64,000 bases of DNA from a bacterium (GCA_041393395.1 JAWKKG010000002.1:14151-78150), one strand, 5' to 3'; positions 21,755-59,597 are shown, counted from the first letter of the stretch. The notes: generated by a model from the letters alone, not told the origin. Program-made: numbers and translations.

Positions 21755-23500
21755 TCATCGCAGGAGCAACACCTTGCCGGTGCCGTGGATCCCGTTGCGG
21801 ACGCGAAAGAAGTACATCCCGGCCGGAACCGGCGCTCCCGCGTCGTTCGTTCCGTCCCAGCGCGCCGCGCGACCCGCGTCGACCAGCGACGACGCGTCCA
21901 GCGTGCGCACCCGGCGACCCGTCGCGTCGTGCACGGTGATGATCACGTCGTCGGGCGCGGAACCCTCGAACGTGAGCTGCAGCGACACGCCCGACAGTCG
22001 AGCGGGCAGCCACGGGTTCGGCGTGGCGTACGGGAGCGCGACCTCGATCTCCGTGTTCGTCACCGTGAAAGTCGCCGATGCCGAAGTCGCCCCCGACGAG
22101 TGCACCACGACCTCCACTCCGCTCTCCGATTCATCGAAGAGATGCGAGTTCGGCACGCTCGACTCGTCGAACACGCTCTGCGCGCCCGGCCACGGATCCG
22201 TGATCCCCGTGGTCAGTGCGAGGTCCGCGTCCTGGGGCTCCAGCGTGAGCAGGCCACCGCCGTCGGCGTAGGCGGACGCGCGATTCGTCACGCGGCCCTC
22301 GTCCACGTGGTACAGAAGCACCCCGCTCCCGGGAAGTCCCGCGTCCCACCCGGTGGGGGTGCGCATCTCGGCGAGGAAGAACTCGCCCGATCCGGGATCC
22401 CCGCTCCGCCAGTCCACGTCGCCGGGATTGGAGCGGAGCTGCACCGCGCTGCCGCCGGTCGCGATCGGTGTCAACGTTCGCGACGCGGTGATCGTCCGGC
22501 CGGGATCGGCCGCCAGCACTTCCGGCAGGTTCCAGTCCAGGTAAGCCCGGGACCACGCGGAGAACGAGCCCGGCAGCGCGCCCGGGGCCGCCGTCTCCGC
22601 GACGCCGCGCACTCGATTCCAGGTGCCGTAGTCCATGAGGTCCCATTGGCCCACGCGGTCCTCGAAGGTCTCCGTGTCGTAGAAATCCGGCAGCCCGAGG
22701 ACGTGACCGAACTCGTGGCAGTAGACGCCGATCGTGGCGATCGAGTCCGCCCACAGGGGCGCCACGGTCGGGCGCACGAGCTGGAGCTCGGGGCAGGTGA
22801 AGTAGTCGGCGACGCGAGGCTGACCGGAGCCGAAGTTCCCGTCGACCACGGACCACTTGTGGGAGTTGATCGCGAAGAGATCGGTCTCCGGCGTCAGCGC
22901 GGACGAGACGGCCCACTCGTAGCCCTGACCCGAGTGGATCACGAGAAGCGCGTCCACCACGCCGTCTCCGTTCGCGTCGTAGTCGGAGAGGTCGAGGCCT
23001 CCGGTCACGGCCGCCTGCACCGCATCTTCCGTCATGCGCTGGCCGTTGTTCGGATACGGGCCGACGCCCGCGCCGTTCGTGCCGCCGGAATAGAAGGACT
23101 GGGTCTCGGGCAGCGTGACCCAGCCCCAGACGTCGCCGGTGACGGACAGCGCTCCGTCCGACAGGTCCTCGTAGAAGCGGCGGAACGTGAAGCCCGTGGT
23201 TCCGAACAGGTGGCTCTCGAAGCGCGCGGGCGCGATGCGGGCGGGGCGGTCCGGATACTGGGCGAGGATCACGAGCAGGTGGACGCTGCCGGTCGGGTCG
23301 ACGGTCGCCCGGCTGGTGCCGCGTGCAATGACGGGCGGGACGGAACGCTCGGCCGGGAGGGCCGCGAGCTCGCGAAAAGGAGCCGCCACGCAATCCGGGA
23401 CCCCATCTCCGGGATCCGCGATCGCTCCACGCGCCGAGCCGGGCCCGAGCCCGAGCCCCAAGAGCATCACGACGAGAGTCCTCGTGTGGCGTGCCGTCAT
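21755..23500 (-). CDS. Secreted M6-family (immune inhibitor A-like) zinc metalloprotease with T9SS-type/FlgD-Ig-like C-terminal sorting domain
   Basis: Signal peptide. Zincin 'HEFGHVLGLPDFYD'. C-terminal ~80 aa 'DVIITVHDATGRRVRTL...WDGTNDAGAPVPAGMYFFRVRNG...KVLLLR'. Confidence 0.8.
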   Translation of the reverse strand: MTARHTRTLVVMLLGLGLGPGSARGAIADPGDGVPDCVAAPFRELAALPAERSVPPVIARGTSRATVDPTGSVHLLVILAQYPDRPARIAPARFESHLFGTTGFTFRRFYEDLSDGALSVTGDVWGWVTLPETQSFYSGGTNGAGVGPYPNNGQRMTEDAVQAAVTGGLDLSDYDANGDGVVDALLVIHSGQGYEWAVSSALTPETDLFAINSHKWSVVDGNFGSGQPRVADYFTCPELQLVRPTVAPLWADSIATIGVYCHEFGHVLGLPDFYDTETFEDRVGQWDLMDYGTWNRVRGVAETAAPGALPGSFSAWSRAYLDWNLPEVLAADPGRTITASRTLTPIATGGSAVQLRSNPGDVDWRSGDPGSGEFFLAEMRTPTGWDAGLPGSGVLLYHVDEGRVTNRASAYADGGGLLTLEPQDADLALTTGITDPWPGAQSVFDESSVPNSHLFDESESGVEVVVHSSGATSASATFTVTNTEIEVALPYATPNPWLPARLSGVSLQLTFEGSAPDDVIITVHDATGRRVRTLDASSLVDAGRAARWDGTNDAGAPVPAGMYFFRVRNGIHGTGKVLLLR

Positions 23501-23727
23501 CTTCCCCTCCCGTGACCGCCTGTCGTCACGATACGCCCGCGACGCGAAGGCCGCCAGGACACCTCCGGATCATCGGTCCCGGGGGCTGCGCGGCCGAGCG
23601 GGTCGGGCCGCCTTGACGGTACTTTCCCGCCGGTGATAGCTTGCGGGGTCTTTTGCGGCCGTTTTGCCCGTTGAAATGCCCTCGTCGGGACGTTCCCGGG
23701 ATCCCCGCGGCCCTTTGGGAGACCCGC

Positions 23728-50291: not shown

Positions 50292-51023
50292 ATGACCCTT
50301 CGAAGAATTGGCCGGTGGGGCCATCGATTCCTCGGCCCGATCGCTGTCGGCGCGTTCGCGATGGGCACTCCGGCCCTCGGTCTGCAGGTACAGCGGATCC
50401 AGCCACGCCTCGACGACCCCTGGCGCGACGGTCCCCCGGTGACTCTGTCCTACTACAACCTGTGTACCGGTTGGGTCTGGCACTGGAACCACCTCGAGTT
50501 TCGGGAGGGGGAGGTGGTGGGGACGACGCTCGAGGTTCCCTCCGGCTACGATGCCCTCGTGGGACAGTGGACGTACTTGGCCTACGGACTCGCGGGGCGC
50601 GGGTTCTGTGTCTGCTCGGTGGCCTCGGTGGACGGCGGCGTGGCCGACTCATTGCTGGCGACCACCTACTTCGTGCCGGAAGCGGGCTGGAACTTCATCA
50701 ACTGGGACGTTCCCGTTTCGGGAGAGATCTCGGTCTGGGTCGAGGGGCCCTACATCGACTACTTGGGGGGAGTCGTCACCGAGAATCCGGGTTTCGGTCC
50801 TGATGGTTCCGGGCCTGCGTGTGGCACCTGCTACCCGATCGGGCGGCCAACGCGGTCGCGCTACTCGTTCGGCGGGTACCCGCCCCCACAGGGAGCGGAG
50901 TTTCAGGACGGAAGCGGCTGCAGCGCCGAGTTGATCTGGGACTTCGTGCTCGCGTCTCCGACGACGGACGTGCCCGGCGTCGAGTCCACGAGCTGGAGTC
51001 GATTGCGAACGATATTCCGCTAG
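50292..51023 (+). CDS. Hypothetical secreted Cys/Trp-containing protein
   Basis: Signal peptide 'MTLRRIGRWGHRFLGPIAVGAFAMGTPALG'. No family recognised. Coding-like GC3 pattern. Confidence 0.45.
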   Translation: MTLRRIGRWGHRFLGPIAVGAFAMGTPALGLQVQRIQPRLDDPWRDGPPVTLSYYNLCTGWVWHWNHLEFREGEVVGTTLEVPSGYDALVGQWTYLAYGLAGRGFCVCSVASVDGGVADSLLATTYFVPEAGWNFINWDVPVSGEISVWVEGPYIDYLGGVVTENPGFGPDGSGPACGTCYPIGRPTRSRYSFGGYPPPQGAEFQDGSGCSAELIWDFVLASPTTDVPGVESTSWSRLRTIFR

Positions 51024-54471: not shown

Positions 54472-54652
54472 GGACAAGGGACAGTCCGCATGAACCGAGC
54501 GGGCCGGCTCCGGGAGGAGCCGGCCCGTGTTCGTTTTCGGGCATGTCGTCGCTCGGGCGGTCGGCGATATCGAGTTGCAGGCGGGATGTCCGCGGGTCTA
54601 CGCTCGCAATACACCTCCCCGGATCCAAGTCCCCGAGCCCCGAGGTGATGCC

Positions 54653-55369
54653 GTGAAGAACCCGGCTTCCCGAATACTCGCCGCTGTCGGCCTGGTGTTT
54701 CTCTGCGCCGCGCTCGCCGATGCGAGCACGATCTTCGTCTCGCAGGATCGCTCCACGTCGGTGTCGGGCGAGATCCACAACGCGAACACGGGACAGACCA
54801 CGAGCGACCAGATGTCGGAGTCCGCACCGGACGTTTCGCCGTTCCTGAGCAACGTCAGTGTAGGCGTCGGCGGCGACGCCTCGCTCGCGTTCGTCCGGGC
54901 GATTCAGAACTCCTTCCTCGAACCGGACTCGATCTCGACCGACGGCAGCTCGTTTGCTCTCCTGCTCGTTCCGACCGACTCCACGGCCGTCACGTCCTAC
55001 GGAGTCGCGATGTCGAACTTCGACGTGACGTTCGAGCTCACCGGCACGGCAGCTTTCACCCTGACGGGTCAGCTGCAGTGCGTCTTCGCCGGGGAAGCCG
55101 CGGCGACACTCACCGGACCGGCGGGCGTCGTCTATGACGTTACAGCCACGACGGAGACGGTGCTCGTCGATGTGGCGGGCACGCTCATCCCGGGACAGTA
55201 CCGCCTCGAGGTCCACGCCCTCGTGGAAGGGACCGTCCCCTTGGATGCCCCGAATGGGGCGTTTCAGGCGCTCTACGAAATCGTTCTCGCGCTCCAGCCG
55301 ACGGTATCGGTGCAGCCGGCGAGCTGGGCGGGGGTCAAGAGCGCCTATCGCTCCGGTCCGGATCGCTGA
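54653..55369 (+). CDS. Secreted hypothetical protein, tandem paralogue A
   Basis: GTG start gives signal 'VKNPASRILAAVGLVFLCAALADAS'. Clear homology along the mature length to the next gene: SQDRSTSV.GE..NAN.GQT, ESAPD, FDV.FELTG.AAF, PGQY.L..H, PTVS..PASW..VK.AY. Confidence 0.55.
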   Translation: MKNPASRILAAVGLVFLCAALADASTIFVSQDRSTSVSGEIHNANTGQTTSDQMSESAPDVSPFLSNVSVGVGGDASLAFVRAIQNSFLEPDSISTDGSSFALLLVPTDSTAVTSYGVAMSNFDVTFELTGTAAFTLTGQLQCVFAGEAAATLTGPAGVVYDVTATTETVLVDVAGTLIPGQYRLEVHALVEGTVPLDAPNGAFQALYEIVLALQPTVSVQPASWAGVKSAYRSGPDR

Positions 55370-55434
55370 CCGATGGGTCTCGCGAAGGCCCGTGTTCGTT
55401 CCGGGCAACCCAAGCGTGCGCGGAAGGAGAAGTC

Positions 55435-56142
55435 ATGAAACGATTCATCGCAGCCGGCGTCGCCATCGTCGCGCTGCTCGGAACGGTGGGCAGCCCTCGT
55501 GCGAACACGATCATCATCTCGCAGGACCGCTCGACGTCGGTGTACGGCGAGGTGTTCAACGCGAACTCGGGACAGACCTGGACGATGCAGGACGCCGAGT
55601 CGGCGCCCGACCAGGGACTGTTCGACAGCTCACTGAGTGTGGGACCCCAGGGTGACGGGGCTCTGGCGATGGCTCAGGCATTTCAGACGTCGAGCCTCGC
55701 CGTGGACAGCCTCTCCGCCATCGGGTCGACGTTTCTTCTGCTCGCGACCCAGCCGGATTCCTCGGCTGTGGCGGTCTCGGGAAGCGCGACCGCGACCTTC
55801 GATGTCGTGTTCGAGCTGACGGGAGCGGCGGCGTTCGCGCTGGCCGGCCACGTGTCGGCGGGGTTGTCGAGCACCACCGACCTCACGCTCAATGGCCCCG
55901 GTGGGCTCGTGTACGAGGCGCATCCGCACCAGGAGAACGTGTTCTTCGACGAAGCCGGGGTCCTCGGTCCGGGTCAGTACCAGTTGCAGCTCCACGTCGT
56001 GAGCGAAGGGAGCACGCAAGGAGTCACGCTGATCTTCGGGGCGGGATACGACCTGCTGCTCACGCTCGAGCCGACGGTCTCGCTGGAGCCCGCGAGCTGG
56101 TCCTCCGTGAAGGGCGCCTACCACGACGGGGCCGTTCGCTGA
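55435..56142 (+). CDS. Secreted hypothetical protein, tandem paralogue B
   Basis: Signal 'MKRFIAAGVAIVALLGTVGSPRA'. ~45% identical to paralogue A over ~210 aa. Confidence 0.6.
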   Translation: MKRFIAAGVAIVALLGTVGSPRANTIIISQDRSTSVYGEVFNANSGQTWTMQDAESAPDQGLFDSSLSVGPQGDGALAMAQAFQTSSLAVDSLSAIGSTFLLLATQPDSSAVAVSGSATATFDVVFELTGAAAFALAGHVSAGLSSTTDLTLNGPGGLVYEAHPHQENVFFDEAGVLGPGQYQLQLHVVSEGSTQGVTLIFGAGYDLLLTLEPTVSLEPASWSSVKGAYHDGAVR

Positions 56143-57076: not shown

Positions 57077-57170
57077 CGTGGTATAGTAGCGGCCCGTACC
57101 ACGCACCGGCTTCCCCAAAGTGAACCGGCCTCCGTCCGGGGCCGTACCCAACCCGATTCGAGGTCCACCG

Positions 57171-59597
57171 ATGCGACCAGTCCGGTCCCGCTGCTTGATT
57201 CCGTCTTGCCTGGGGCTGCTGGCCCTGGCTTCCTCGGCGTCGGCGCAGTCCGCCGTCCCCCCGTACAACGTGACCCTGCTCGCGAATCTCGACGAACACA
57301 CGGGCGTCAACGACTGCTGGGGCTATTCCGCGCCGGGCGTGGAGATCGCGATCTACGGGCACCAGAGCGGGACGGCGTTCGTCGACGCGACCGACCCCGA
57401 GAACGCCGCCGAGTACTGGAGTCTCGCCGGCCCGACCTCGATCTGGCGGGACATCAAGACGTACCAGCACTACGCCTACATCGTCACCGAGGGGACGGGG
57501 TTCGGCACCGGGCTCCAGATCGTGGATCTCGCGAACCCGCTAAGCCCGGTCCACGTCCGCACCTACACGGACGGGTCATTCTCCTCCGCGCACAACATCT
57601 GGATCGACGAAGCTGCCGGCATCGCCTACGCGTGCGGCGCGGCGCCGGGCGGCGGCATGCACGTGCTCTCGCTCGCGGATCCGGAGAACCCCGTGGAGCT
57701 GGACTTCTTCGACTCGTACTACATCCACGACCTGTTCGTCGGAGGCGGGCGAGGATACGCCGGCGCGATCAACTCGGGTTCGCTGCGGATCATGAACACC
57801 ACGAACCCCGCGAACATCACCACGCTCGCGAGCCACTTCTACAACGGCGCGAACACGCACAACGCGTGGCCGAACGTGGCCGGTACGCACGTCTGCACGT
57901 CGGACGAGGTGGGCGGCGGCCACTTCAAGATGTGGGACATCACGAACCTGTCCTCCATCTCGCTGACCTCGGAGTGGCGTCCGCCGGATCATCCGATCAG
58001 CATCATCCACAACATCCTGAACAAGAACGACCTCGCGTACATCTCCTGGTACGCGGCCGGAGCGCGCATCCTCGACGTCACGGATCCGTACGAGCCGGTC
58101 GAGGTCGGCTTCTACGACACGAGCAACCGCGAGGGCGGCGGCTTCGAGGGCTGCTGGGGCGTGTACCCGTTCCGGGGCGACGACGTCTTCTACGCGTCGG
58201 ATCGGCAGAACGGCCTGTTCATCCTCCGCTTCGACGGCGACTTCGCCGGCGAGATCCAGGGCACGGTGCGCAATCTCGCCACCAGCGCGCCGCTGGATTC
58301 CGCGCACGTGCGCATCCTCGGCACGGAGTTCGACTACCCCACGGACGGTGCGGGGACCTACTCCGGACTCATCTCCGGCGGCTCCTACCAGGTGGTCACG
58401 ACGCGGTTCGGCTACCAGCCCGACACGGCGAACGTGGTCATCCCGCCGAACGGCGTGCTCGTGCACGACGTGGACCTGCAGGCGATCCCGAACGGGACGG
58501 TGGAGATCACGCTGCTCTCCGCGCGGGACGGGCAGCCGATCGTGGGCGCACGCGGCTTCGTCTTCGACTCGCCGATCGTCGATCTGGAGACCGACGCGAA
58601 CGGTCAGGTGACGATCCCGGGCCTCCCGGCCGGCATTCCCTGGACGGCGCGCTTCGGCAAGTTCGGTTTCGAGCTCACCGACGTGCAGGTCGTGCCGGCG
58701 GTCGGCACGACGACTCCGGTGAGCGCGAACGCGAACCCCGGTTTCTTCGACGACTTCCAGGCCGATCAGGCCTGGGTCAGCGGCGCCCCCGGCGACGACG
58801 CCACCGACGGGCTGTGGGAACGGGCGATTCCGTTCGGCAGCTACTGGCTCGGACCGGTCGGCCCGGACGTGGACGCGTCCGGCCTCGACACCGGCTACGC
58901 CTGGGTCACCGAGAATCACACGCCCTCGTTCGTCGGCACGTCGGACGTGGACAACGGCCGCACGACGCTGCTCTCGCCGGTGTTCGACGCGAGCGGCTTC
59001 GGAACGGTGGGGCTCCGGTACCAGCGCTGGTTCTCGAACCGCGCGCCGTCCCAGAGCGACGACGAGTTCCGGACCGACGTCAGCACGGACGGCGGCTCCA
59101 CCTGGACGAACCTCGAGACGCTCTCGTTCGGGACGGACTCCTGGGCGGAGGTCACGATCGACCTGAGCTCGGTGGTCACCCCGACGGCCACGATGCAGCT
59201 GCGTTTCGTGGCCGAGGACCTCGGAGCCGATCAGTACGTCGAGGCGGGCGTCGACGAGGTCGCCCTGCTCTTCGGCGCCACCGACGCACCGGGGGAGATC
59301 GCCGCGGGCTCGCTCTCGTCGCTGTCGCTTTCGGCTCCCGTGCCGAATCCGGCCCGGGATCGGCAGGAGATCCGATTCGACGTCCCGGCCGCGGGGCCGG
59401 CGATGCTCGCCGTCTACGACGTCGGCGGCCGCCGGGTGGCCACTCTCCTCGGCGGCAGCCGGGTGGCGGCCGGCCGGCAGTCCGTGACCTGGTCCGGCCG
59501 GGACGACGCGGGACGGGAGGTCGCGCCGGGCGTGTACTTCGCGAAGCTGGAGGCGGCGGGGGAGGTCCGGACCCGGAAGATCACCCGGATCCGCTGA
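57171..59597 (+). CDS. Secreted LVIVD-repeat beta-propeller ('choice-of-anchor B'-like) protein with CarboxypepD_reg-like domains and T9SS-type/FlgD-Ig-like C-terminal sorting domain (808 aa)
   Basis: Signal 'MRPVRSRCLIPSCLGLLALASSASAQS'. LVIVD-like blades (IVDLANPL, HVLSLADPE, ILDVTDPY). 'GTVRNLATSAPLDSAHVRILG' and 'GTVEITLLSARDGQPIVGARG' regulatory-like beta-sandwich domains. C-terminal CTD 'PNPARDRQEIRFDV...LAVYDVGGRRVATL...WSGRDDAGREVAPGVYFAKLEAAGEVRTRKITRIR'. Confidence 0.75.
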   Translation: MRPVRSRCLIPSCLGLLALASSASAQSAVPPYNVTLLANLDEHTGVNDCWGYSAPGVEIAIYGHQSGTAFVDATDPENAAEYWSLAGPTSIWRDIKTYQHYAYIVTEGTGFGTGLQIVDLANPLSPVHVRTYTDGSFSSAHNIWIDEAAGIAYACGAAPGGGMHVLSLADPENPVELDFFDSYYIHDLFVGGGRGYAGAINSGSLRIMNTTNPANITTLASHFYNGANTHNAWPNVAGTHVCTSDEVGGGHFKMWDITNLSSISLTSEWRPPDHPISIIHNILNKNDLAYISWYAAGARILDVTDPYEPVEVGFYDTSNREGGGFEGCWGVYPFRGDDVFYASDRQNGLFILRFDGDFAGEIQGTVRNLATSAPLDSAHVRILGTEFDYPTDGAGTYSGLISGGSYQVVTTRFGYQPDTANVVIPPNGVLVHDVDLQAIPNGTVEITLLSARDGQPIVGARGFVFDSPIVDLETDANGQVTIPGLPAGIPWTARFGKFGFELTDVQVVPAVGTTTPVSANANPGFFDDFQADQAWVSGAPGDDATDGLWERAIPFGSYWLGPVGPDVDASGLDTGYAWVTENHTPSFVGTSDVDNGRTTLLSPVFDASGFGTVGLRYQRWFSNRAPSQSDDEFRTDVSTDGGSTWTNLETLSFGTDSWAEVTIDLSSVVTPTATMQLRFVAEDLGADQYVEAGVDEVALLFGATDAPGEIAAGSLSSLSLSAPVPNPARDRQEIRFDVPAAGPAMLAVYDVGGRRVATLLGGSRVAAGRQSVTWSGRDDAGREVAPGVYFAKLEAAGEVRTRKITRIR

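What the first reader, a model, noticed from the sequence alone, without database searches (positions are those of the whole stretch)
54653..56142. Tandem pair of paralogous secreted proteins of unknown function
Two adjacent same-strand genes (215-235 aa), each with its own signal peptide, are ~45% identical over their whole mature length. Conserved blocks: 'I(F/I)(V/I)SQDRSTSV.GE..NAN.GQT', 'ESAPD', 'FDV.FELTG.AAF', 'PGQY.L.LH' and 'PTVS..PASW..VK.AY'. I recognise no domain family.
Tandem duplication of a secreted module with rapid divergence is typical of surface, adhesion or host/phage-interaction proteins. The pair sits between an ornithine-aminotransferase locus and an EamA exporter.
Basis: seen in the sequence. 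Interest (0 to 1): 0.55.

Follow-up and report, generated by a model that had tools for sequence, protein, structure and literature searches.

The report
Secreted paralogue pair with unrecognised C-terminal tag
Two neighbouring genes encode exported beta-sandwich proteins from a large unnamed family whose members carry interchangeable cell-surface anchors, and here the anchor slot holds a short tail (…S-W-x-x-V-K-x-A-Y…) that ends hundreds of unrelated secreted proteins in Eisenbacteria and allied phyla and is absent from the domain libraries and papers searched.

Summary
Gene A (54653-55369) and gene B (55435-56142) are same-strand tandem paralogues, 47% identical (E 2e-63). Each has a signal-peptide-like N-terminus. 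Both copies are kept in the only close relative found.

In homologues the same domain is followed by different C-terminal modules:
- T9SS type A/FlgD_ig domains
- PEP-CTERM and variants
- dockerins
- a short tail, as in A and B

That tail has the consensus P-[VT]-[PS]-x-E-x-x-[ST]-W-G-x-I-K-x-[LM]-[YF]-R-COOH. A third, unrelated secreted protein in the window also ends with it. All 120 matches sit at ORF ends, on at least 61 unrelated protein bodies. Most are from Eisenbacteria, with Ignavibacteria, Latescibacterota, Fibrobacteraceae and Hymenobacter also present. No library model or paper covers the tail.

My best reading is surface-displayed binding modules carrying a candidate new C-terminal sorting or anchoring tag. 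That function is inferred, not shown.

The parts
54499..54528 (+). Terminator-like hairpin after the upstream aminotransferase gene. It suggests that A and B form their own transcription unit.
   Evidence: 13-bp stem, 11 of them G-C pairs, followed by a T-rich tail. This is a consensus match only.
54653..55369 (+). Gene A: 238-aa secreted paralogue (stop codon included).
   Evidence: It equals public protein P0003. The orthologue in L001 is about 96% identical.
54653..54724 (+). Gene A predicted Sec signal peptide (residues 1-24, cleavage after ALADA).
   Evidence: Read from the sequence. The cleavage site is inferred.
54725..55297 (+). Gene A beta-sandwich domain (residues 25-215).
   Evidence: Alignment to B, profile hits and the model of B.
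55298..55366 (+). Gene A C-terminal tail, PTVSVQPASWAGVKSAYR, plus 5 extra residues (SGPDR).
   Evidence: It matches the extended tail consensus at positions -7, -6, -4, -1, 0, +4, +7 and +8.
55435..56142 (+). Gene B: 235-aa secreted paralogue (stop codon included).
   Evidence: P0001 is 100% identical and P0002 is 96% identical.
55435..55503 (+). Gene B predicted Sec signal peptide (residues 1-23).
   Evidence: Read from the sequence. Model pLDDT is low for residues 1-22. The cleavage site is inferred.
55504..56070 (+). Gene B beta-sandwich domain (residues 24-212): 12 strands.
   Evidence: pLDDT 96-99 over residues 30-210, strands E25-42 through E199-213.
56071..56139 (+). Gene B C-terminal tail, PTVSLEPASWSSVKGAYH, plus 5 extra residues (DGAVR). 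It is modelled as a linker followed by a short helix (residues 222-230).
   Evidence: The last 106 nt of A and B form the longest DNA repeat between the two genes, at 73% identity.
50292..51023 (+). A third protein, unrelated in sequence and secreted-looking, that carries the same tail (…VPGVESTSWSRLRTIFR-stop, tail at 50970-51020).
   Evidence: Its homologues P0153 and P0154 end in VESLSWGRLRRMFR and VEASSWGRIKTLYR.
57120..59597 (+). Context: a neighbouring choice-of-anchor B protein with a T9SS type A / FlgD_ig C-terminal domain. It shows that this genome also uses that sorting domain.
   Evidence: TIGR04312 at 1.5e-53, TIGR04183 at 24.5 bits against a cut-off of 23, and PF13860 at 34 bits.

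Best explanation
A and B are lineage-specific tandem duplicates. Each encodes a Sec-exported, single-domain protein built from four pieces: a signal peptide, a ~190-residue 12-strand beta-sandwich, a short P/T/S/E linker, and a 10-residue basic amphipathic tail. The beta-sandwich belongs to a large, uncurated family that behaves like a 'choice-of-anchor' domain. It sits right after the signal peptide in most of the listed members. It is followed, in different lineages, by interchangeable C-terminal modules: a T9SS type A/FlgD_ig domain, PEP-CTERM and variants, GC-type dockerin, two unnamed Cys-containing modules, or the short tail. I therefore infer that the domain works outside the cytoplasmic membrane, on the cell surface or in the matrix, as a non-catalytic binding module. 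I also infer that the tail (consensus P-[VT]-[PS]-x-E-x-x-[ST]-W-G-x-I-K-x-[LM]-[YF]-R-COOH) does the job the other anchors do. On this view it is a portable C-terminal sorting or retention tag, read by a conserved partner in Eisenbacteria and other FCB-group (Fibrobacterota-Chlorobiota-Bacteroidota) bacteria. What is shown: the paralogy, the family, the fold class, the alternation of anchors, and the tail's strict C-terminal position, portability and taxonomic range. What is inferred: export, surface location, binding function, and the tail acting as a sorting signal.
For: Paralogy and conservation: A and B are 47% identical, E 2e-63, and both copies occur in the same synteny in relative L001.

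Family: 286 representative clusters have E<=1e-3 and 20 have E<=1e-10, and for most listed hits the best match covers the bulk of the domain (profile positions ~10-215).

Anchor alternation among the 150 best members: 24 FlgD_ig, 21 TIGR04183 T9SS type A, 13-14 PEP-CTERM (plus VPLPA, VPDSG and IPTL variants), 11 Dockerin_1 with 8 GC-type dockerin, and 18 short tails. On a rough NJ tree of the domain, the tail versus non-tail state changes at least 9 times.

Tail position in the window: the motif has only 3 matches in the six-frame translation, and all three lie within 6 residues of the stop of ORFs longer than 260 aa.

My base-composition estimate of chance is about 1-2 matches. All 120 matches end ORFs.

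Tail-bearing ORFs: 133 of them fall into 61 unrelated body clusters. Of these, 82% have signal-peptide-like N-termini, against 11% of other ORFs. 128 of 133 stop exactly after the R. Positions not fixed by the search pattern are also conserved: -8 P, -7 V/T, -6 P/S, -4 E, +6 L/M.

Independent tails: 14 further tails that do not match the search pattern were found in the same loci, against 11 internal matches in 1.85 million translated residues.
Against: No experiment or co-occurring machinery links the tail to secretion or anchoring. It has no hydrophobic transmembrane segment and no cleavage motif like the known CTERM signals. It is far shorter than any known T9SS domain (40-82 aa in PMC11969387).

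The tails of A and B are degenerate. G+1 is S or A, I+3 is V, and 5 residues follow the Y-R/H. In the close relative, gene A has lost its stop codon and carries 23 residues more than the window's A. So a free C-terminus may not be needed here, or these tails are decaying.

The signal peptides were judged by eye or by a crude heuristic. Most taxonomy labels are submitters' names for metagenome-assembled genomes (MAGs).
Confidence: 0.6

Rival explanations
1. The tail is a passive membrane- or envelope-binding amphipathic helix. It would act as an in-plane anchor, like the C-terminal helix of E. coli PBP5/6 (own knowledge), and not as a signal read by dedicated sorting machinery.
For: It is modelled as a short helix detached from the domain. 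In a helix, W0, I+3, L/M+6 and Y/F+7 fall on one face, with K+4 and R+8 alongside (geometry inferred). It has no transmembrane segment and no obvious cleavage site.
Against: At about 9 residues (2.5 turns) it is very short for an anchor. W, G, I, K and the terminal R are nearly invariant across phyla and across at least 61 unrelated bodies, and the chain ends exactly after R in 128 of 133 cases. That degree of conservation is more than a lipid-binding helix should need and looks like recognition by a protein. W, G, I, K and R were partly fixed by the search pattern, but the 14 independently found tails and the family tails show the same residues.
Confidence: 0.2
2. The tail is a minimal type IX secretion signal. 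It would mimic the last strand (motif E) of a T9SS C-terminal domain and be handled by PorV/PorU-type components.
For: The taxonomic range is essentially the FCB group that uses T9SS: Eisenbacteria, Ignavibacteria/Kapaibacterium, Latescibacterota, Krumholzibacteriia, Zixiibacteriota, Fibrobacteraceae, Caldithrix and Hymenobacter. The same genomes are full of FlgD_ig/T9SS type A proteins. In this family the tail alternates with T9SS domains. T9SS domains here also end in [KR]-h-x-h-h-[RK]-COOH. In P. gingivalis the last 22 residues of Hbp35 were the part absolutely required for secretion and attachment of GFP (PMC11969387).
Against: The tail lacks motifs B and D, which the same paper finds conserved even in the shortest known T9SS domains of 40-55 aa. 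TIGR04183 and PF18962 do not match A or B or canonical tail proteins. The tail is predicted helical, not a beta-strand. No T9SS component was examined here.
Confidence: 0.15
3. This is the first reader's view: fast-evolving surface proteins engaged in host or phage interaction, duplicated and diversifying under positive selection.
For: The two are tandem duplicates at only 47% identity. Orthologue dN/dS is higher than for the neighbouring housekeeping gene: 0.57 and 0.24, against dN = 0. Weak fold resemblance to phage tail-fibre tips and Bdellovibrio fibre domains appears among many other hits.
Against: dN/dS is below 1 for both. The pair is stable in synteny between the two genomes. Composition is not atypical and no mobile-element genes are nearby. 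Other family members looked at are single-copy in unrelated contexts. There is no phage or defence context.
Confidence: 0.1
4. The conserved 3' end reflects a nucleotide-level element (a terminator or regulatory RNA) rather than a peptide tag.
For: The 3' 106 nt is the longest DNA repeat between A and B.
Against: Conservation follows the reading frame. Positions +2 and +5 vary freely in amino acid while W, G, I, K, Y/F and R are fixed, and the motif always ends at a stop codon in frame. The three tails in the window have different DNA. No terminator-like site lies there.
Confidence: 0.02

Closest known systems
NCBIfam 'choice-of-anchor' domain families (e.g. TIGR04312 choice-of-anchor B, present next door at 57120-59597)
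   Same: A secreted N-terminal domain whose homologues carry different C-terminal sorting or anchoring signals (T9SS, PEP-CTERM and others) in different lineages.
   Different: No named choice-of-anchor model, and no other NCBIfam or Pfam model, matches this domain. The set of anchors also includes a short tail that is not itself a curated signal.
T9SS type A C-terminal sorting domain (TIGR04183 / PF18962 / FlgD_ig-like)
   Same: It occupies the same C-terminal slot in homologues, has the same taxonomic neighbourhood, and ends in hydrophobic residues followed by a basic residue at the C-terminus.
   Different: It is a folded beta-sandwich or sheet of 40-100 aa with motifs B, D and E, cleaved by PorU (PMC11969387). 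The tail is about 10-17 aa, is predicted helical, and has no motif B or D.
PEP-CTERM/exosortase and related CTERM signals (TIGR02595, VPLPA-, VPDSG-, IPTL-CTERM)
   Same: A short, portable C-terminal tag on many unrelated signal-peptide-bearing proteins, found in paralogue-rich sets and used by other members of this same family.
   Different: Those signals consist of a motif, a transmembrane helix and a basic cluster. The tail has no transmembrane helix.
NF038126 FxDxF family PEP-CTERM protein
   Same: Some PEP-CTERM members of this family give weak matches, with a best E-value of 3e-9 at 37 bits.
   Different: All matches are below the 50-bit cut-off and mostly cover the last strand plus the PEP-CTERM region. 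A and B do not match at all.
Jelly-roll / beta-sandwich binding modules (GOLD, CBM51/61/16, CUB, PPC, collagen-binding domain; Bd1399 DUF2807)
   Different: Only about 90-130 of ~190 residues superpose, at 5-15% identity. Foldseek TM is at most 0.3. No ligand-binding residues could be compared.

Membership tests
Any curated Pfam / NCBIfam domain family | Score above the curated cut-off for a model covering the ~190-aa domain. | tested here: not met
   Searches give only Big_1 at 16 bits (cut-off 34.9) for A and nothing for B. Across 150 family members, only C-terminal anchor models match.
'Choice-of-anchor'-type domain (as a concept) | Homologous secreted domain found with two or more different C-terminal sorting signals. 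| tested here: met
   T9SS type A in 21-24 members, PEP-CTERM in 13-14 plus variants, dockerin in 8-11, and short tails in 18 of 150.
Named NCBIfam choice-of-anchor families (A, B, ...) | HMM match to one of those models. | tested here: not met
   no match for A, B or any of the 150 members' N-terminal domains.
T9SS cargo (type A CTD) | C-terminal domain matching TIGR04183/PF18962, with motifs B, D and E. | tested here: not met
   Searches give no match for A or B. The region after the beta-sandwich is only 23 residues.
T9SS cargo (type A CTD) | Dependence on PorV/PorU/SprA for export. | not testable with these tools
   This needs genetics or a whole-genome inventory. Only 64 kb of the genome is available.
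PEP-CTERM / exosortase substrates | PEP motif plus transmembrane helix plus basic cluster at the C-terminus. | tested here: not met
   A and B end in …SWxxVKxAY(R/H)xxxxR with no hydrophobic stretch.
Proposed 'TWGxIKxxYR-COOH' tail class (defined here) | Motif P-[VT]-[PS]-x-E-x-x-[ST]-W-[G/small]-x-[IVL]-K-x-x-[YF]-R at the C-terminus of a protein that bears a signal peptide. | tested here: met
   A and B match at -7 V, -6 S, -4 E/Q, -1 S, W, +3 V, +4 K, +7 Y and +8 R/H.
Proposed 'TWGxIKxxYR-COOH' tail class (defined here) | Chain ends exactly one residue after the aromatic residue (128 of 133 canonical cases). | tested here: not met
   A and B carry 5 further residues. The relative's A carries 23 more residues than the window's A.
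Carbohydrate-binding / jelly-roll binding modules | Close structural match and a conserved ligand site. | tested here: inconclusive

The most novel reading that the evidence does not exclude
The 10-17-residue tail …P-[VT]-[PS]-x-E-x-x-[ST]-W-G-x-I-K-x-[LM]-[YF]-R-COOH is a previously undescribed C-terminal protein-sorting signal, read by dedicated machinery, in the FCB superphylum. It is most abundant in Eisenbacteria and is also present in cultured Hymenobacter. It would mark a new class of secreted or surface cargo. The pathway could be a minimal form of T9SS targeting or an entirely separate export or attachment route. A and B would be two of its cargoes.
Probability: 0.4. Interest if true: 0.8.

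Novelty: new variant of a known kind. Interest (0 to 1): 0.6.

Why it matters
C-terminal sorting tags such as LPXTG, PEP-CTERM and T9SS domains have each led to a dedicated secretion or attachment machinery, and they are what allow surface proteomes to be predicted from sequence. A new tag would have several uses:
- It would let hundreds of 'hypothetical proteins' in the uncultured Eisenbacteria, Latescibacterota and Ignavibacteria be assigned to the cell envelope.
- It would point to an unknown recognition partner.
- It is testable, because the tail also occurs in cultured Hymenobacter.

Separately, the ~190-residue beta-sandwich is a widespread family (at least 286 clusters) with no database model. 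It could be curated at once as a new choice-of-anchor-type domain.

Tried and rejected
- The word-index protein searches with B alone and with the 150-sequence profile returned only the query itself and the one close relative (plus one repeat protein, P0006). They even missed paralogue A. The exhaustive profile search was needed.
- The first AlphaFold run on a 3-sequence alignment was unusable (pLDDT 37.5). I discarded it in favour of the 150-sequence run.
- The search for related loci with the 18-sequence tail subfamily failed because the alignment was too divergent.
- The metagenome scan with the close alignment found only one distant, dockerin-type, single-copy relative. Copy-number variation among close strains therefore could not be assessed beyond one relative.
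- afdb50 was unavailable.
- Foldseek against the PDB gave no meaningful match.
- Enzyme assignment is rejected: there is no family match and no catalytic-type conserved residues. The nearly invariant residues are R32, F63, Q84, S86, G97, F126, L177, G180 and Y182.
- Lipoprotein status is rejected: neither signal peptide contains a lipobox.
- A mobile-element or phage origin is rejected.
- Literature searches for the motif strings, for Eisenbacteria with T9SS or sorting, and for new sorting signals in FCB phyla found nothing relevant.
- The neighbour-gene clustering around tail genes revealed no shared candidate machinery. It showed only conserved synteny of one small Ignavibacteria family, and many T9SS-domain proteins.

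Full report
**1. The observation**

The window is about 66-70% G+C around the finding, with no compositional break. Gene A (54653-55369, GTG start, 238 aa) and gene B (55435-56142, ATG start, 235 aa) lie on the + strand, 65 nt apart. Each is preceded by a Shine-Dalgarno-like sequence. BLASTP between them gives 47% identity over 233 residues, E 2e-63.

Both N-termini look like Sec signal peptides: a basic start, then a hydrophobic core, then A-x-A or P-R-A. Neither has a lipobox. A terminator-like hairpin follows the aminotransferase gene, so A and B probably form their own transcription unit.

**2. Conservation of the pair**

The word-index search found only the query itself and one relative. 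The query's public copy is P0001, from an unclassified MAG on a 1.16-Mb contig. The relative is P0002, 96% identical, from a MAG labelled 'Gemmatimonadetes bacterium'. The relative's 6.5-kb contig (L001) has the same gene order: aminotransferase, A, B, EamA, then a choice-of-anchor-B/FlgD_ig protein. So both copies are conserved, and the duplication predates the split of the two genomes.

Nei-Gojobori estimates between orthologues give dN/dS of 0.57 for A and 0.24 for B, from about 22 substitutions each. The aminotransferase fragment has dN = 0 and dS = 0.20. This indicates purifying selection that is weaker than on the housekeeping neighbour.

In the relative, gene A's stop codon is replaced. 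The protein therefore runs on into B's start codon and is 23 residues longer than the window's A.

A third paralogue, P0007 (29% identical), lies alone on another contig of the same relative. Other family members examined are single-copy in unrelated contexts. The tandem arrangement is therefore lineage-specific.

**3. The family**

Neither Pfam nor NCBIfam matches A or B. An exhaustive HMMER profile search of 1.84 billion cluster representatives found 286 proteins with E<=1e-3 and 20 with E<=1e-10. For most listed hits the best match covers the bulk of the domain, roughly profile positions 10-215. For most of them the domain also begins right after the signal peptide in the hit. Residues shared across the family include S-Q-x-R near the first strand, A-P-D-F-G-P-F, Q-x-S, F-D-V-x-F-E-L, G-P-x-G and L-x-P-G-x-Y-x-L.

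The C-termini, in contrast, differ. Library scans of the 150 best members give these counts:

| C-terminal module | Members matching |
|---|---|
| FlgD_ig | 24 |
| T9SS type A (TIGR04183) | 21 |
| PEP-CTERM (plus VPLPA-, VPDSG- and IPTL-CTERM variants) | 13-14 |
| Dockerin_1 | 11 |
| GC-type dockerin | 8 |
| Short tail of the A/B type (by regex) | 18 |

Two further recurrent Cys-containing C-terminal modules have no model.

On a rough neighbour-joining tree of the domain, the tail versus non-tail state changes at least 9 times. At about 25% identity the tree is only indicative. This is the behaviour NCBIfam calls 'choice-of-anchor', but no named model covers this domain. The only hint is a sub-threshold match of some PEP-CTERM members to NF038126, and that match mostly covers the last strand plus the PEP-CTERM region.

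**4. The fold**

With the 150-sequence alignment, AlphaFold2 gives pLDDT 91.3 and pTM 0.82. Residues 25-213 form 12 beta-strands. Residues 214-221 are a linker, and residues 222-230 (the tail) form a short helix with pLDDT around 70-76.

The domain is therefore a beta-sandwich of the general kind used by non-catalytic binding modules, without a close solved relative. The assignment of a binding function is inference.

**5. The tail**

A regex for [ST]W..[VILM][KR]..[YFW] matches only three times in the six-frame translation of the whole window. Each match lies within 6 residues of the stop codon of a long ORF. The three ORFs are A, B and an unrelated Cys-rich secreted-looking protein at 50292-51023 that ends …VESTSWSRLRTIFR. 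Homologues of that third protein end in VESLSWGRLRRMFR and VEASSWGRIKTLYR.

I then scanned the 596-Gb species-representative genome collection with a DNA pattern for [ST]-W-G-x-I-K-x-x-[YF]-R-stop, using high-GC codons. My own base-composition estimate puts chance at about 1-2 matches. All 120 matches end ORFs, and except where the 8-kb stretch cuts the ORF short or it is very short (about a dozen cases) these ORFs span 89-1376 aa from stop to stop.

In those loci:
- 133 tail-bearing ORFs fall into 61 unrelated body clusters.
- 82% have signal-peptide-like N-termini, against 11% of other ORFs.
- 128 of 133 end exactly after the R.
- Positions not constrained by the search pattern are conserved: P at -8, V/T at -7, P/S at -6, E at -4, and L/M at +6.
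- 14 further tails that do not match the search pattern occur in the same loci, against only 11 internal matches in 1.85 million translated residues.

Tandem pairs or arrays of tail-bearing paralogues recur in L019, L027, L053, L075 and L093, and L099 has five tail genes.

The record titles are dominated by Candidatus Eisenbacteria/Eiseniibacteriota. Also present are Ignavibacteria, Kapaibacterium, Melioribacter, Latescibacterota, Krumholzibacteriia, Zixiibacteriota, Fibrobacteraceae, Caldithrix, Chlorobiota and two cultured Hymenobacter strains. This is essentially the FCB group.

No Pfam or NCBIfam model touches the tail of canonical examples, even at E<=10. Public annotations, including RefSeq, call these proteins 'hypothetical'. 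Full-text searches for the motif strings and for related topics found nothing.

**6. Interpretation**

The tail has these properties:
- It is confined to the extreme C-terminus.
- It is portable across unrelated proteins that bear signal peptides.
- It is separated from the body by a Pro/Thr/Ser/Glu-rich linker.
- It is taxonomically restricted.
- In this family it occupies the slot that T9SS, PEP-CTERM or dockerin modules fill in homologues.

These are the hallmarks of a sorting or anchoring tag. I commit to that reading at about 0.6 for the whole package. It is a candidate only: no experiment, machinery or cleavage site is known.

The main rivals are:
- A passive amphipathic anchor (0.2). 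This is disfavoured by the near-invariance of W, G, I, K and the terminal R.
- A minimal T9SS signal (0.15). The taxonomy is attractive, and in Hbp35 the last 22 residues were the part absolutely required for secretion of a GFP reporter (PMC11969387). However, motifs B and D are absent, and they persist even in the shortest known T9SS domains of 40-55 aa.

A and B are atypical members of the tail class. Their tails are degenerate and are followed by 5 extra residues, and by 23 more than that in the relative's A. Either a free C-terminus is not essential, or these copies are drifting.

**7. Novelty**

The tandem pair on its own is ordinary. What is new is twofold: an uncurated but widespread choice-of-anchor-type beta-sandwich domain, and an apparently undescribed C-terminal tail class. 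I rate the finding as a new variant of a known kind, namely C-terminal sorting tags and choice-of-anchor domains, with moderate to high interest. The absence of prior description rests on the libraries and papers that could be searched here.

Noticed in passing
window 50292-51023 (+): An unrelated Cys-rich, secreted-looking protein (about 243 aa) ends with the same tail (…VPGVESTSWSRLRTIFR). Its only homologues (P0153 at 49% identity, P0154 at 38%) also end in SWGRLRRMFR and SWGRIKTLYR. No Pfam or NCBIfam match.
   Followed up: partly
L011, L013, L016, L020, L024, L025, L030, L083, L086, L103, L115 and about 20 more loci: A conserved family of about 135-150 aa pairs an Fn3-like domain with the tail (…VSHNVSGIKRTWGMIKEMFR). 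It occurs in Ignavibacteria, Kapaibacterium, Melioribacter, Caldithrix, Zixiibacteriota, Chlorobiota and cultured Hymenobacter (WP_400193615.1, WP_354584305.1, both annotated 'hypothetical'). Neighbours recurring across many of these loci include a TonB-dependent-receptor-like protein, an ABC ATPase-like protein and an HExxH-motif protein; these labels are from reading the sequences, not from a family scan.
   Followed up: partly
family members P0009, P0032, P0051, P0060, P0066, P0097, P0106; and P0025, P0052, P0062, P0075, P0077, P0089, P0098, P0100, P0130, P0131: Two further recurrent C-terminal modules have no Pfam or NCBIfam model. One reads …VVPTDG.TEGSYG..S.G.ER.P...AC.PQ.LG.P.CP. The other reads …STWNFQ.WYRD....GFNLSD.L.V.F.P. 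They may be additional unnamed anchor or sorting domains.
   Followed up: no
L001 1326-1442 compared with window 55367-55369: In the close relative, gene A's TGA stop codon is replaced by a sense codon. The protein gains 23 residues and ends at the TGA that overlaps B's ATG. This could be a real read-through variant or a sequencing error.
   Followed up: partly
window 54522-54535 and 55387-55400: An exact 14-nt repeat, GGCCCGTGTTCGTT, lies upstream of both A and B. The first copy is the 3' arm and tail of the terminator-like hairpin after the aminotransferase gene. It could be a remnant of the duplication unit or a shared regulatory site.
   Followed up: no
window 57120-59597 (+) and 21755-23569 (-): The first is a large secreted protein with a FlgD_ig / T9SS type A C-terminal domain and a choice-of-anchor B domain (TIGR04312, 1.5e-53). 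The second was not scanned; its C-terminus (…GMYFFRV…KVLLLR) only looks like such a domain by eye. At least the first shows that this genome uses this sorting domain alongside the short tail.
   Followed up: partly
L004, L048, L072, L091 (Alphaproteobacteria/Hyphomicrobiales), L060, L081 (Patescibacteria), L118 (Didemnitutus): Most of these contigs (all but L060) carry the Ignavibacteria-type small tail family yet sit in bins labelled as unrelated phyla, and several also share the conserved neighbour genes seen in Ignavibacteria/Kapaibacterium loci. These are probably mis-binned or mislabelled contigs.
   Followed up: no
L122 2463-4630: The third paralogue, P0007, sits next to two Peptidase_U49-like genes and a FlgD_ig protein in the relative MAG. 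This context is not seen elsewhere.
   Followed up: no
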